From Octopus vulgaris (lineage: Eukaryota): a stretch of 64,000 nt of DNA. Where the stretch lies: assembly GCA_951406725.2 (NCBI GenBank), contig OX597820.1, positions 80,786,001-80,850,000 on the forward strand, written 5' to 3'. A program made the position numbers. Shown piece after piece: positions 1-64,000 of the stretch. The number at the start of each line of letters is the position of its first letter. Within the stretch, counting starts at the first letter, position 1.

Positions 1-3000
1 ATTTACAGGACAAATTGTCGAAAGCAATTTTAAGTAAAGATAAAGAGAGCTTAAGCAAATCTATTGACGAGTGTGAAGATACTGGTTACCTTGAATTGAG
101 CCCCTACCTGAAGAATGCAAGAGATATATTAGAAAGTCTTGGTGGAGGCCGTGGAGGTTAGCATTATATATACATATTTAATTGTCACAGTACAAATATT
201 TTGAAACCAAGAAATTTTTTCTTTGCCAGAATGAGGATGAACTTTTATTTGAATTTGTCACTCGATTTCCTTTAACAATTTTAAAAGAAGCAGCCAACAA
301 ACACAGTCAAAATATTCATTTCTCAAGTTCACGGAACAATTGTACTGATTTCTATGAAATTCGAGTTTTTAGCACAGGATTGAAGTTTATACCTTGTACT
401 AATTGTAGTTTATATCTTGTTATACTAATAATGGATGTATTTCAATCAGATATTTTCTTACTTTTCTAGCACTTTGAGTATATAATTCTTACCCTGTCCG
501 TCCAGGTCCATGCATCTTTTAAGGCGTTTTTGTAACTGTGACCACGATATTTATATTTAAATGTTATTATTAAAGTATAAAACAATATAAATGAGCATGT
601 CTACAAACGATTAATTGGCATATAATAAGTAATGTAGCATGCAATATATCTCAGTAATTACCCAAAACTTTAAAGAAATCATTCCGTTCATTGTTCCGCT
701 TCTATTATCAGGCCTTAAGACACCGGAAATATTGCGTCAAAAACTTGAAAGTGCCAGGAATCAGAATGACAAACAACATTTGGAAAAAGTATTAAATGAG
801 TGCATTGCTGCTGGTATGCCAGAACTGGACAATGATATTGAGTTAGCTAGGAATGATCTCGATTACATAGGATATGATGTTAGAGGTTAGATCTGAAATT
901 ACTATTGTCAAATATAAATATGAAATTATGCAAATATGTGTATACATATATATGTACGTACACACACACAAACATGCTCGTATACCATTTTAATCAATAA
1001 TAAATTGTTTTTGTTGTAAAACTTTGTGTGTATGCATAATGTGTGTGTGCATGTGTGTGTGTGTTTGTGTGTGTGTGTGTGTGTGTGTGTGTGTGTGTGC
1101 GTGTGTATGTGTAGATGGGAAGGTTGCAAAAGGTATGACAGCTTCAATAGGGGACAAGAATCGTTGACATGCCGGCACTGACTGGTCCTTATTAGTTTCG
1201 GATGTCACTTGGACAATGGTGGTTTTCAGTGAAGTTAATGTATAGGGAAGAAGTCAATTAATCTCCCTTTCAACAACCCTATGAACATTGTAGTCCATAG
1301 GATATGAATCTGGCGAGTTTGGAGGCCACAAGTTTAGTGATACATAATCGTAAAAATTGCCTTACATCTATTCTTGGGTTACATGTGCTTTGTGAGAAGG
1401 TGATGGGTCTTAATGAATAGTATATGGCTTTGCATTTTGCACTTCATTCAACTAGGGCTTAACAACTGTATCCAGCATCTCAACATTTTCAGAAGCATTA
1501 AATCTAACATCTTTACTACAATCCCAGAGTCAGTGAAAGACTTGGGGATCAGTATGTGAAATGACGTATCATTTCATATGCAAGATGGCAGCAAAGTGCA
1601 GAAAACTGGCAGGATGGATACTGATGTCCTTCAGGACAAGAGACCAAGAAACTGTTTTGACCCTGTGGAGAACCTTTGTTCTCAGCCGCCTAGACCACTG
1701 TTCCCAGTTATGGTCACCACATAGTGCCAAATTAACAGTGGAGCTTGAAGCAGTCGAACGCCGCTACACTAAAAAGATTGAAACAGCGCAGCGGATGAGC
1801 TATAAAGATAGGCTGAGAAAACTACAGCTTTACTCCCTGGAGCGAAGGCGTGAGGGATATGCAATAATATACGTGACGATCTGGCAGAAACGTTAGCACG
1901 CCGGATGAAATGCTTATCGGTCGACTTTGCCTTTCATTCTTTCGGGGTCGATAAATTAAGTACCAGTTGCGTACTGGGCTCGATCTAATCGACTGGCCAC
2001 CCTCACCAAAAATTTCGGGCCTAGAGTAGAAAAGATTATTTACAGGTGTTATGCAATATTTGTTGATCTACTAATATAATATGCTTATAAGGTTTTTCCT
2101 TATATAACGGATATTACCATTCATGAAAAACGTGTAAGATGACTTAACCAAATAAGTTATGAACAAAATCCCATATTTTGTGTGAGTGTGTATGTGTATG
2201 TGTGCGTGTGTATGTATGTATGTGTGTATGTGTGTGTGTGTTGTATGTGTGTGTGTGTGTGTGTGTGTGCGTGTGTACTTCTCTACGCAATAAAACCATT
2301 ATTCTTAAAATTTCCAAGTAAGTCATATGAGACATAAGCCTAATGTTTCTGTTTACTAGGAATAAAAACCCCTGAAACTTTACGCGATGAAATAAAATCT
2401 GCGGTTAGACTGAAAGATAAAAATGCTCTGAAAAGGCTCATTGATGAATCAGAGAAATGTGCATTTCCAGAAGTTGCAGGTGATCTACGAAGAGCTAGAG
2501 ATACACTGCAAAGTCTCGGAGGAGGTCGTGGAGGTTTGATATTGAAATATTTAGCTGCATGAATTAACATGAGTATCTCATTATATGCGCTTCTAAATAG
2601 TTGCCAAAAAATTGGGTTGCTTTCTTTAAGTAGACTCATTGTTTTGGCAATAAAAATTTGTTTCTATGTATATTGTGTATGAAATAGGCTCTGGTATTCA
2701 CTATTCCATCAAATAATGTAGGTTGTCATAAACTATTGTAGAACTGTGTGGAAATAGTTTTGCGGGGGTTAATACGGTTTCTGTTTCAGTCATTTTCTTC
2801 TTTTCAAAGCACTGAAAACAGAAATATGCAGACAGTGAAATCTTAAGTGATAAGTATTTGTGAAAATGCAGTATAAACTTAATGATTTAAGCGTTTTGCA
2901 TATCATAGGATATGTACAAAATAGTGGTTGAATCGCGAACTGAGCGTGAAAAGCAATATACTCAAAGGTTTAGTTATTCTTTGTTAAGTGATATTAGGGA

Positions 3001-63000: not shown

Positions 63001-64000
63001 ATATAGAATCTAGCACGTTGGAAAGCTTTTATAATGATATCAACATTACAATGCATGGAAGAGTGCAGAAGCCTGCGTCTGTGAGGGCAATATAAATAAC
63101 TGCATAATATATGTATTCAGAAAAACACACACAAATACACACACTGAAAAATAGGCATACACACACACACAAACACACATACACGCACACCACATCCACA
63201 TTTTATACTTACAATGTAAGCATATATCACTTCCAACACATTCTATAATCTGCAATATATTCGCTTTCAATACATTCTATATTTACGATGTGAGGACATG
63301 TCAGCAGCACTTAATGGAACAGAGACATCATCGTCCTGTAATTCCCGCTTTGGCTTCATCTTCCCATTAGTATAAAAACCTTTGTCAAAGTGATGGTTTT
63401 GTGGAAAAATATTCACGTGTAACTTTTCGTTGAACACACCAATTCTATCCGTGTATGCATGTGTGAATGTGTTTGTGTGTGAAGTGTGTTTAATCTTATT
63501 TATGTTTGTTTGGATTTGATTGTGAGTTTCCGTGCGTTTCGGTGTGTGTTTCTGCCTGCTTCTATTTGTTTGTGTATGATCCTGTATGTGAGATTATTGG
63601 CAAACGGATGTTTTTGCTTGTGTTTTTACTCTTTGGTATTGTGTGCATGACATCACTAAAGACATATACAGAAATTATTTGCAAGTTTGTTTATTGCGTT
63701 GTTAAAATACTCTGTCAGGGACGAAGACGCCCGAATCACTTCGCCGAAAACTAAAGTCTGCTATGAAGCAGGGAGATAAAGATACACTGGACAAAGTAAT
63801 TCACGAATGCATCGCTGCTGGAATGCCAGAATTAGACGTAGACATAAGCGTCGCTCGAGACGTATTGAAAGACGTTAAAATTTCACCTCCAACAGGTACA
63901 TAGCATTCACTTTGCTTTCAAACGCCTATTGTACTAATAGAATATTATACATTCTTCTATTATGATATCGAAACATCATTTGAAAGCGCCTCTTTTATGA

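What the first reader, a model, noticed from the sequence alone, without database searches (positions are those of the whole stretch)
1..63895. Array of at least 57 symmetric phase-1 exons encoding a giant (>3,300 aa) one-exon-one-repeat helical protein that I do not recognise
Seen: 57 homologous exons on the + strand, 46 exactly 174 nt, all frame-preserving, no stops, with introns diverged beyond recognition, so the exons appear under purifying selection. The ORF track shows only fragments of this and misses many exons. Inference: the LxxxLxxA / LxxxIxEC / PELxxDxxxARxxL spacing suggests three amphipathic helices with an S/T-P N-cap and a Gly-rich linker. That implies a beads-on-a-string giant structural, scaffold or ruler protein, architecturally analogous to but not homologous with titin or nebulin. 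No signal peptide or TM segment lies in the window. From memory, the repeat loosely resembles the short helical repeats near the C-termini of molluscan hillarin/LTD-1/KY-like transglutaminase-domain proteins; this is a hypothesis only.
Basis: partly seen in the sequence, partly recalled or inferred. Interest (0 to 1): 0.9.

Follow-up and report, generated by a model that had tools for sequence, protein, structure and literature searches.

The report
Giant gene of three-helix repeat exons
The window lies inside a real, very large animal gene made of dozens of near-identical-length exons, each encoding one small three-helix domain of a family that the domain and structure libraries on hand do not contain.

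Summary
A profile search of all six frames finds 57 copies, all on the + strand. All 56 complete exons have AG...GT boundaries, lengths divisible by 3 and phase 1-1; 46 are exactly 174 nt. Exon 1 is cut by the window start and a donor follows exon 57, so the gene runs past both ends.

Paralogous exons are saturated at synonymous sites but constrained at replacement sites: pN < pS in 441 of 441 same-type pairs. Intron similarity vanishes within about 6-17 nt of the splice sites.

Two exon types, A and B, alternate strictly with one break. Each type folds alone as a confident three-helix unit, pLDDT 84.9 and 88.1.

Pfam, PDB sequence and profile searches, and Foldseek give no significant match.

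Caveat: exons 53-57 lie in a 2,235-bp tandem duplication about 99.9% identical including introns, so 52 exons are distinct.

The hillarin/KY idea has no support here and could not be properly tested. The large protein databases were closed, so novelty is unproven. Function as a modular scaffold or spacer is inferred.

The parts
1..156 (+). exon 1, A-type, cut by the window start
   Evidence: profile match 3-158, ends ...GGGRG, donor GAG|GTTAGC
712..885 (+). exon 2, B-type, 174 nt
2360..2533 (+). exon 3, A, 174 nt
3477..3650 (+). exon 4, B, 174 nt
4564..4737 (+). exon 5, A, 174 nt (the unit folded)
5701..5871 (+). exon 6, B, 171 nt
7560..7733 (+). exon 7, A, 174 nt
9751..9924 (+). exon 8, B, 174 nt
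10467..10640 (+). exon 9, A, 174 nt
11477..11650 (+). exon 10, B, 174 nt
11864..12037 (+). exon 11, A, 174 nt
12319..12492 (+). exon 12, B, 174 nt
14367..14540 (+). exon 13, A, 174 nt
14937..15110 (+). exon 14, B, 174 nt
15618..15791 (+). exon 15, A, 174 nt
16912..17085 (+). exon 16, A, 174 nt (the only break in the A/B alternation)
17582..17755 (+). exon 17, B, 174 nt
18092..18265 (+). exon 18, A, 174 nt
19313..19486 (+). exon 19, B, 174 nt
20812..20970 (+). exon 20, A, 159 nt
21291..21464 (+). exon 21, B, 174 nt
23151..23324 (+). exon 22, A, 174 nt
23811..23984 (+). exon 23, B, 174 nt
24489..24662 (+). exon 24, A, 174 nt
25046..25219 (+). exon 25, B, 174 nt
26571..26744 (+). exon 26, A, 174 nt
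26978..27151 (+). exon 27, B, 174 nt
27383..27556 (+). exon 28, A, 174 nt
27925..28098 (+). exon 29, B, 174 nt (the unit folded)
28461..28634 (+). exon 30, A, 174 nt
28945..29130 (+). exon 31, B, 186 nt
30636..30806 (+). exon 32, A, 171 nt
31220..31393 (+). exon 33, B, 174 nt; followed by the longest intron (8,371 nt)
39765..39944 (+). exon 34, A, 180 nt
40224..40397 (+). exon 35, B, 174 nt
42074..42250 (+). exon 36, A, 177 nt
43437..43613 (+). exon 37, B, 177 nt
45292..45389 (+). decayed exon remnant in intron 37, with stop codons just upstream in its frame
   Evidence: nhmmer E 5.1e-05, model positions 53-154 of 174; translation
46699..46872 (+). exon 38, A, 174 nt
47399..47572 (+). exon 39, B, 174 nt
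48604..48777 (+). exon 40, A, 174 nt
49301..49474 (+). exon 41, B, 174 nt
52886..53059 (+). exon 42, A, 174 nt
53390..53563 (+). exon 43, B, 174 nt
54033..54206 (+). exon 44, A, 174 nt
54679..54852 (+). exon 45, B, 174 nt
55534..55707 (+). exon 46, A, 174 nt
56022..56195 (+). exon 47, B, 174 nt
57264..57437 (+). exon 48, A, 174 nt
59249..59425 (+). exon 49, B, 177 nt (first exon of the duplicated 4-exon block)
59627..59800 (+). exon 50, A, 174 nt
60113..60286 (+). exon 51, B, 174 nt
60482..60655 (+). exon 52, A, 174 nt
61484..61660 (+). exon 53, peptide identical to exon 49
61862..62035 (+). exon 54, peptide identical to exon 50
62348..62521 (+). exon 55, peptide identical to exon 51
62717..62890 (+). 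exon 56, peptide identical to exon 52
63719..63895 (+). exon 57, peptide identical to exons 49 and 53; a GT donor follows, so the gene continues past the window
59104..64000 (+). tandem duplication with a 2,235-bp period, about 2.2 copies, introns included
   Evidence: at offset 2235, 3 mismatches in 59104-61247, then a variable TG-rich patch, then exact again for 61388-61765

Best explanation
The window is an internal slice of one very large protein-coding gene of an AT-rich animal genome.

Shown: at least 57 consecutive phase 1-1 exons, 52 of them distinct. Each encodes one unit of about 58 residues. Two ancient unit types alternate (B-A-B-A...). The units are kept by selection on the protein sequence. 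Each unit on its own is predicted to fold as a small three-helix bundle, followed by a short tail that is Gly-rich after A units.

Inferred: the exons are spliced in series. The product would be a polypeptide of more than 3,000 residues, with three-helix domains joined by linkers of about 8 residues and a two-domain (about 116-residue) super-repeat.

Most likely mechanism (inferred, not shown): it works as a long modular intracellular scaffold, spacer or spring. The alternating A and B surfaces offer periodic, multivalent binding sites. Because all exons share one phase, cassette-exon skipping could tune its length without breaking the frame. The linkers carry RG/RGG-type and S/T-P motifs, which could be sites of regulation.
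For: Real gene.
- 57 of 57 copies lie on one strand.
- AG at 56 of 56 acceptors and GT at 57 of 57 donors; the pyrimidine fraction upstream of acceptors is 0.64, against 0.49 window-wide.
- All exon lengths are divisible by 3.
- The chance that a 57-codon frame stays open is about 0.012 per exon.

Selection (43 distinct 174-nt exons).
- A-A pairs: pS 0.769 and pN 0.360 over 231 pairs. B-B pairs: pS 0.710 and pN 0.386 over 210 pairs.
- pN < pS in 231 of 231, 210 of 210 and 460 of 462 (A-B) pairs.
- Identity by codon position is about 0.58 / 0.67 / 0.40.
- Introns are unalignable, and column information is at background beyond +6 and about -17.

Fold.
- AlphaFold2 on an A exon gives pLDDT 84.9 and pTM 0.64; on a B exon, pLDDT 88.1 and pTM 0.69. 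Both show helices at 4-17, 20-33 and 36-53.
- The nearly invariant residues L7, A14, I27, L38, A45 and L49 have core-like spacing.

Super-repeat.
- Ward clustering gives strict alternation over 51 exons with one break.
- Mean identity is 0.453 at even separations and 0.367 at odd separations.
- Type-specific columns cluster at residues 28-35 and 39-43. Position 31 is E in 26 of 26 A exons and most often V (16 of 25) in B exons.

Linker.
- The residues after helix 3, the split codon and the first 3 residues of the next unit make up about 8 residues.
- The split codon would read G at 34 of the 56 junctions.
- RG-type motifs lie in the last 8 residues of 13 of 51 exons, all A-type. S/T-P lies in the first 6 residues of 26 of 51.
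Against: - There is no transcript evidence. Serial splicing of all exons is assumed.
- No multi-repeat model was made, so whether the domains are independent is untested.
- The paralogue dN/dS compares old duplicates within one genome, not orthologues.
- Function rests on analogy alone. No homologue of known function was found: Pfam, PDB and Foldseek gave nothing significant, and the Atlas gave only unnamed clusters at 0.90, with recognition below the stated mark.
- 'Intracellular' rests only on one conserved Cys per unit and the absence of Cys pairs. The N-terminus is outside the window.
- Five of the 57 exons may be an assembly artefact.
- The p-values treat pairs of exons as independent, which they are not.
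Confidence: 0.6

Rival explanations
1. The units do not fold as separate beads. They stack into one continuous alpha-helical rod or solenoid. With three helices per exon, chain direction reverses from one unit to the next, so the structure would repeat only every six helices. That would make the A/B pair the true structural unit.
For: - Strict A/B alternation.
- A/B-specific residues are concentrated on one region, the end of helix 2, the loop and the start of helix 3, as expected for an inter-unit interface.
- The best, non-significant, Foldseek and PDB-profile matches include helical-repeat proteins: designed repeat proteins and mitoribosomal helical proteins.
Against: - Single exons fold confidently on their own as closed three-helix units.
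- The tails after A units are Gly-rich, mean 3.38 Gly in the last 6 residues, and are the least confident part of both models, with pLDDT 67-68 for the last block. That fits flexible linkers.
- No multi-unit model was made.
Confidence: 0.2
2. The array is a bank of alternative exons, mutually exclusive or heavily skipped. Only a few units would enter any one mRNA, so the protein would be much shorter and variable.
For: - Tandem arrays of homologous exons of equal length and phase are the known anatomy of mutually exclusive exon clusters (established knowledge, recalled, e.g. insect Dscam).
- All exons are phase 1-1, so any subset keeps the frame.
Against: - Lengths divisible by 3 give no frame-based penalty for joint inclusion.
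- Strict alternation of two types is what a super-repeat protein predicts, not a bank of equivalent alternatives.
- Apart from isolated single columns, only the splice-site signals rise above background in 60 nt on either side, so no selector-like element is visible.
- Each exon carries its own linker.
Confidence: 0.07
3. It is the repeat region of a hillarin / LTD-1 / KY-type transglutaminase-like protein.
For: Passages of PMC3718969 call Drosophila hillarin and C. elegans Ltd-1 'transglutaminase-like proteins'. They say nothing about helical repeats.
Against: - No Transglut_core or LIM match in 51 exon peptides or 10 intronic frames.
- The Atlas search restricted to clusters with a Pfam family returned no usable hit.
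- The window contains no non-repeat coding sequence that could carry such domains.
Confidence: 0.1
4. It is a dead or artefactual array: a decaying pseudogene, or an assembly expansion of a few exons.
For: - The last 4.9 kb is a nearly exact 2,235-bp tandem repeat.
- One decayed exon remnant exists at 45292-45389.
Against: - 52 distinct exons are all open, with saturated synonymous sites and constrained replacement sites.
- All splice sites are intact.
- Outside 59104-64000 the copies are only about 45% identical in protein within a type, so they cannot be assembly duplicates.
Confidence: 0.03

Closest known systems
Nebulin (vertebrate thin-filament protein)
   Same: A giant protein built from many short helical repeats with a higher-order super-repeat, encoded by arrays of frame-preserving exons (recalled knowledge). 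Here there is one repeat per exon and a two-unit super-repeat.
   Different: Nebulin modules are about 35 residues with an SDxxYK motif (recalled). The unit here is about 58 residues, a predicted closed three-helix bundle. No Pfam match of any kind reached a cut-off.
Spectrin repeat proteins (spectrin, dystrophin, nesprin)
   Same: Long chains of three-helix units.
   Different: Spectrin repeats are about 106 residues and are joined by a continuous helix (recalled). Here the units are half that size, with Gly-rich breaks. No spectrin match in Pfam or PDB.
Titin PEVK region
   Same: Tandem exons of equal phase that can be skipped without breaking the frame, giving length isoforms (recalled).
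   Different: PEVK is disordered with units of about 28 residues (recalled). Here the units are folded helical domains.
Staphylococcal protein A domains
   Same: Three-helix bundles of about 58 residues in tandem on short linkers (recalled).
   Different: A bacterial protein with five copies (recalled). It was not listed among the matches in the PDB sequence, profile or Foldseek searches. An analogy of size and fold class only.
De novo designed helical bundles and repeat proteins
   Same: They are the best PDB profile matches (9dn6_A, E 0.0016; 5cwo_A, E 0.003), so the sequence looks like an idealised helical protein.
   Different: The E-values are marginal and the targets are artificial. This is similarity of composition and helix pattern, not descent.
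Hillarin / LTD-1 / KY transglutaminase-like proteins
   Same: Nothing shown here.
   Different: The defining transglutaminase-like and LIM domains were not found in the window. The gene ends lie outside the window.

Membership tests
Modular proteins built from symmetric phase 1-1 exons (one module per exon) | Each module is encoded by one exon, with the same intron phase on both sides | tested here: met
   56 of 56 complete exons are multiples of 3, begin at codon position 2 and end at codon position 1.
Modular proteins built from symmetric phase 1-1 exons (one module per exon) | The exons are actually spliced in series in mRNA | not testable with these tools
   No transcript data were available.
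Hillarin / LTD-1 / KY | Transglutaminase-like core domain | tested here: inconclusive
   No such Pfam match in 51 exon peptides or 10 intronic frames. The window holds only the repeat region, so the domain could lie outside it.
Hillarin / LTD-1 / KY | LIM domain (LTD-1, D-hillarin; recalled) | tested here: inconclusive
   Same searches, same limitation.
Hillarin / LTD-1 / KY | Sequence similarity of this repeat to repeats in family members | not testable with these tools
   The large protein databases were closed. The Atlas search of named clusters gave no usable hit, which the tool says shows neither absence nor novelty.
Spectrin repeat | Match to the spectrin repeat profile; three-helix unit of about 106 residues | tested here: not met
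   No spectrin match was listed in Pfam at E up to 10 (one search shows the first 25 of 37 families matched). The unit is 57-58 residues.
Nebulin repeat | Module of about 35 residues matching the nebulin profile | tested here: not met
   No nebulin match was listed in Pfam. The unit length is 58 residues.
B12-binding_2 (PF02607) helical cap domain | Score at or above the Pfam gathering cut-off (23 bits) | tested here: not met
   6 of 51 exons match weakly, best E 0.0016. The two matches whose scores I saw were 14.8 and 12.8 bits, below the cut-off.
Any solved fold family (PDB, BFVD) | Significant structural match | tested here: not met
   0 of 132, 0 of 130 (PDB) and 0 of 267 (BFVD) listed matches have E at or below 0.001. 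The best is 9hqv_Yg, E 1.8, TM 0.77 over 53 columns.

The most novel reading that the evidence does not exclude
The repeat is a previously undescribed three-helix domain family. The gene encodes a lineage-restricted giant protein of more than 3,000 residues, and possibly far more, since both ends lie outside the window. Its strictly alternating A and B domains would form a periodic, multivalent ruler or spring for a cytoskeletal or other polymeric partner. Its length would be adjustable by cassette-exon skipping, and its linkers (RG/RGG and S/T-P motifs) would be regulated by methylation or phosphorylation.
Probability: 0.25. Interest if true: 0.65.

Novelty: new member of a known kind. Interest (0 to 1): 0.5.

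Why it matters
Giant one-repeat-per-exon proteins such as titin, nebulin and the spectrins set lengths and mechanical properties in cells. A new one built from an unclassified three-helix domain with a clean two-domain super-repeat would be a fresh model for three things:
- how such genes grow by exon duplication;
- how exon skipping tunes protein length;
- how small helical bundles behave in series.

It also shows a practical point. ORF-based annotation sees only fragments of this gene, so comparable genes are probably under-annotated in large, AT-rich invertebrate genomes. The claim of novelty is limited, because the repeat could only be checked against Pfam, the PDB, BFVD and the large clusters of the ESM Atlas.

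Tried and rejected
1. Pfam on 10 single exons and on all 51 exon peptides one by one. Only scattered sub-threshold hits. The most recurrent is B12-binding_2, in 6 of 51, which I judged to be helix-pattern noise.
2. PDB by sequence (0 hits) and by profile. The best hits are designed proteins with E at or above 0.0016, which I rejected as homologues.
3. Foldseek against PDB with both models and against BFVD with one. Nothing at E at or below 0.001.
4. ESM Atlas. Unnamed 'hypothetical protein' clusters, mostly Haptophyta, at 0.90, with recognition 2116 below the 2300 mark. This is a lead only. The search of named clusters gave nothing.
5. Scan of prokaryote genomes. Two attempts with alignments failed, because the tool found no stretch conserved enough. 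A single exon gave 1 locus out of 434 pattern matches. The match lies inside a 679-aa bacterial ORF and was seeded by one 8-residue pattern, so I rejected it as chance.
6. Complex prediction with a B unit and an A unit as two separate chains. No verdict: score 0.02 against a mark of 0.34. It says nothing either way.
7. Literature.
- 'hillarin': 6 papers listed. I read passages of PMC3718969.
- 'kyphoscoliosis peptidase' + repeats + mollusc: 3 listed, titles and abstract starts only.
- cephalopod + giant protein + tandem repeats + exon: 0 papers.
- '58-residue repeat' variants: 2 listed, irrelevant.
- three-helix bundle / tandem repeats / phase 1 / symmetrical exons: 2 listed, irrelevant.
- 'LIM and transglutaminase' or 'helical repeat': 1,812 papers, 10 listed, none relevant.
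None of these searches turned up a description of this repeat.
8. Rfam at gathering thresholds and ARAGORN: 0 hits each.
9. Average-linkage clustering of the exons only split off one outlier. It was replaced by Ward clustering and a label-free parity test.
10. The first donor-finding script had a frame bug and found no donors. It was corrected.
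Full report
**What is in the sequence.** The window has no N and is AT-rich, with GC 0.28-0.41 in 2-kb steps. I took one stop-to-stop frame of the window as a seed and ran jackhmmer against all 721 stop-to-stop pieces of at least 40 aa in six frames. 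This gave 57 matches, all on the + strand and none on the - strand.

A script then placed the nearest in-frame AG and GT for each match. Its first version had a frame bug, which I corrected. The result is 56 complete exons, plus exon 1, which is cut by the window start and ends at 156.
- Lengths are 174 nt x46, 177 x5, 171 x2, and 159, 180 and 186 once each, all multiples of 3.
- AG precedes 56 of 56 acceptors and GT follows 57 of 57 donors. GTTAG is the donor pentamer in 38 of 57, and the last exon base is G in 57 of 57.
- The 20 nt upstream of acceptors are 64% pyrimidine, against 49% for the window.
- Every exon begins at codon position 2 and ends at codon position 1, that is phase 1-1.
- Exonic bases total 9,912, about 3,304 codons. 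Introns run from 195 to 8,371 nt, median 524.5.

A donor follows exon 57 and exon 1 is truncated, so the gene continues beyond both ends of the window.

**Completeness and chance.** An nhmmer profile of the 43 distinct 174-nt exons found the same 57 exons plus one extra match at 45292-45389 (E 5.1e-05). Translation shows stop codons just upstream of that match in the same frame. It covers only part of the exon model, so I read it as a decayed remnant. A protein profile run with all filters off on 2,734 pieces of at least 15 aa found nothing else below E 3. At this base composition a 57-codon frame stays open with probability about 0.012, so 52 independent open copies cannot be chance.

**Selection.** I ran Nei-Gojobori counts on the 43 distinct 174-nt exons.

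| Pair type | Pairs | pS | pN | Pairs with pN < pS |
|---|---|---|---|---|
| A-A | 231 | 0.769 | 0.360 | 231 of 231 |
| B-B | 210 | 0.710 | 0.386 | 210 of 210 |
| A-B | 462 | 0.727 | 0.441 | 460 of 462 |

Synonymous sites are saturated. Identity by codon position is about 0.58 / 0.67 / 0.40.

Intron DNA shows no positional homology. All-against-all blastn of the 56 introns gave 19 HSPs. Of these, 13 lie outside the recent duplication, and all 13 are copies of dispersed repeats in non-equivalent places or orientations. Per-column information content over 51 exons is high only at -3..-1, in a T-rich tract back to about -17, and at +1..+6. Further out it averages about 0.07 bit, against 0.04 for random columns.

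So the protein sequence, and only that plus the splice signals, has been preserved since the duplications. This is a paralogue comparison within one genome. Orthologues were not available.

**Two exon types.** Ward clustering of the 51 complete distinct exon peptides gives 26 A and 25 B in strict alternation, with one break: exons 15 and 16 are both A. Exon 1 ends in the A-type tail.

A label-free test agrees. Mean identity is 0.453 at even separations and 0.367 at odd separations for exons 16-52 (324 and 342 pairs). For exons 2-15 the values are 0.450 and 0.372. The p-values printed there treat pairs as independent, so they are overstated.

Identity does not fall with distance along the array (rho 0.01). 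Apart from the last block, the array is therefore old and evenly diverged.

Columns that separate A from B cluster at residues 28-35 and 39-43, which are the end of helix 2, the loop and the start of helix 3. Others lie at residue 10 and in the tail. Position 31 is E in 26 of 26 A exons and most often V (16 of 25) in B exons.

**The recent duplication.** From 59104 to the end of the window the sequence repeats with a period of 2,235 bp. There are 3 mismatches in 59104-61247 at that offset. A variable TG-rich patch follows, then exact identity again for 61388-61765. Exons 53-57 therefore encode peptides identical to exons 49-53, and the introns around them are almost exact copies too. This is either a very young four-exon duplication or an assembly artefact, and the window cannot tell which. 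Counting distinct exons gives 52.

**Fold.** AlphaFold2 on single exons, each with the alignment of its paralogues, gave:
- an A exon (alignment of 51): pLDDT 84.9, pTM 0.64;
- a B exon (alignment of 25): pLDDT 88.1, pTM 0.69.

Both have helices at residues 4-17, 20-33 and 36-53 and a low-confidence tail. The nearly invariant residues L7, A14, I27, E37, L38, A45, R46 and L49 fit a small hydrophobic core plus a conserved helix start at P-E-L.

Between the end of helix 3 and the start of the next helix 1 lie about 8 residues. The split codon would read G at 34 of 56 junctions, D at 13, E at 5 and A at 4. A tails are Gly-rich (mean 3.38 Gly in the last 6 residues, against 1.68 for B). Thirteen of 51 exons, all A-type, carry an RG-type motif in the last 8 residues. 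S/T-P occurs in the first 6 residues of 26 of 51 exons.

All searches were exon by exon, so no multi-repeat model exists. Whether the units are independent beads or a stacked rod therefore stays open.

**Comparison with known families.**
- Pfam: no match at or above a cut-off for 10 exons or for all 51 scanned singly. The only recurrent family is B12-binding_2, in 6 of 51 with best E 0.0016.
- PDB by sequence: 0 hits. By profile, the best hits are designed helical proteins at E 0.0016 and 0.003.
- Foldseek: 0 of 132 and 0 of 130 listed PDB matches, and 0 of 267 BFVD matches, reach E 0.001.
- ESM Atlas: unnamed eukaryote clusters, mostly Haptophyta, at 0.90 with recognition below the stated mark. 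Among named clusters there was nothing.
- Prokaryote genomes: one chance match.
- Six literature searches found no description of such a repeat. From PMC3718969 I read only the passages naming hillarin. They call hillarin and Ltd-1 transglutaminase-like proteins.

Whether relatives exist in other proteomes, named or not, stayed unchecked.

**What else is in the window.**
- Introns carry decayed mariner-type transposon pieces. HTH_48 matches at 8835-9110 (-), E 3.2e-06, above its cut-off. It matches more weakly, below the cut-off, at 13644-14108 (-). Transposase_1 matches at 29615-30100 (-), also below its cut-off.
- There is a dispersed repeat of about 210 bp in introns 2, 15 and 33.
- There are microsatellites.
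- No Rfam family or tRNA was found.
- Six of the 10 intronic frames scanned matched no Pfam family, the other matches were transposon pieces or one weak hit, and no frame on the - strand matched the repeat.

The organism was not determined. The features fit an AT-rich, repeat-rich animal genome.

**Interpretation.**
- Shown: a real coding array of small helical domains with a two-domain period.
- Inferred: serial splicing into a protein of more than 3,000 residues.
- Most likely function, by analogy with nebulin, the spectrins and titin (recalled knowledge): a long modular scaffold, spacer or spring with periodic binding surfaces, whose length could be tuned by skipping phase-compatible exons.
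- Rivals: a continuous rod with an AB structural unit, a bank of alternative exons, the repeat region of a hillarin/KY-type protein, and a dead or artefactual array. The last is largely excluded for exons 1-52.

**Verdict.** The structural reading is supported at the level of single units. The functional and family readings are open.

I file it as a new member of a known kind: a giant one-repeat-per-exon protein whose repeat is absent from Pfam-A and from solved structures. Interest is moderate (0.5). The anatomy is unusually clean and the domain is unclassified, but giant repeat genes are not rare in animals, and novelty could not be tested against full proteomes.

Noticed in passing
window 59104-64000: A 2,235-bp tandem duplication of a four-exon block (B-A-B-A), about 2.2 copies. 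It has 3 mismatches over the first 2,144 bp compared, and a variable TG-rich patch at 61248-61387. It is either a very recent duplication or an assembly artefact.
   Followed up: partly
window 45292-45389 (+): A decayed remnant of a repeat exon inside intron 37. It matches model positions 53-154 of 174, and there are stop codons just upstream in its frame.
   Followed up: yes
window 15618-17085: Exons 15 and 16 are both A-type, the only break in the alternation. A B exon may have been lost. Intron 15 (15792-16911) contains a copy of a dispersed repeat.
   Followed up: partly
window 8835-9110 (-), 13644-14108 (-), 29615-30100 (-): Decayed mariner/Mos1-type transposon fragments in introns. HTH_48 matches at E 3.2e-06 (above its cut-off) and 0.0086 (below it); Transposase_1 matches at 8e-05 (below its cut-off).
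   Followed up: partly
window about 1919-2037, 15982-16234, 31778-31992, 34714-34892, 35278-35497, 35612-35819: A dispersed repeat of about 210 bp, 75-87% identical, in both orientations, in introns 2, 15 and 33 (four copies in intron 33). It could be a SINE or a MITE. It was not identified.
   Followed up: no
window 1537-1896 (+): An open frame of 119 aa in intron 2 that, from memory only, resembles the C-terminal part of a LINE reverse transcriptase. Pfam gave no match.
   Followed up: partly
window 49900-51400: A strongly C-over-G skewed stretch in intron 41 (down to -0.76 in 200-nt steps). Its cause was not identified.
   Followed up: partly
all donors, e.g. window 886, 3651, 4738: The donor consensus is GAG|GTTAG in 38 of 57 exons. 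From memory this differs from the usual animal GTAAG/GTGAG. It was probably inherited with the duplicated unit.
   Followed up: no
window 16489-16609, 19043-19148, 26056-26376, 33464-33606, 34194-34328, 35778-35898: Long microsatellites in introns: (AT)n, (TATG)n, (CATA)n, (ACAT)n and (TAA)n. The largest is 321 bp of (AT)n.
   Followed up: no
introns between exons 2-52: Introns after B exons (B to A) are longer than those after A exons: median 1,031 nt (n=25) against 442.5 nt (n=24), p about 0.05.
   Followed up: no
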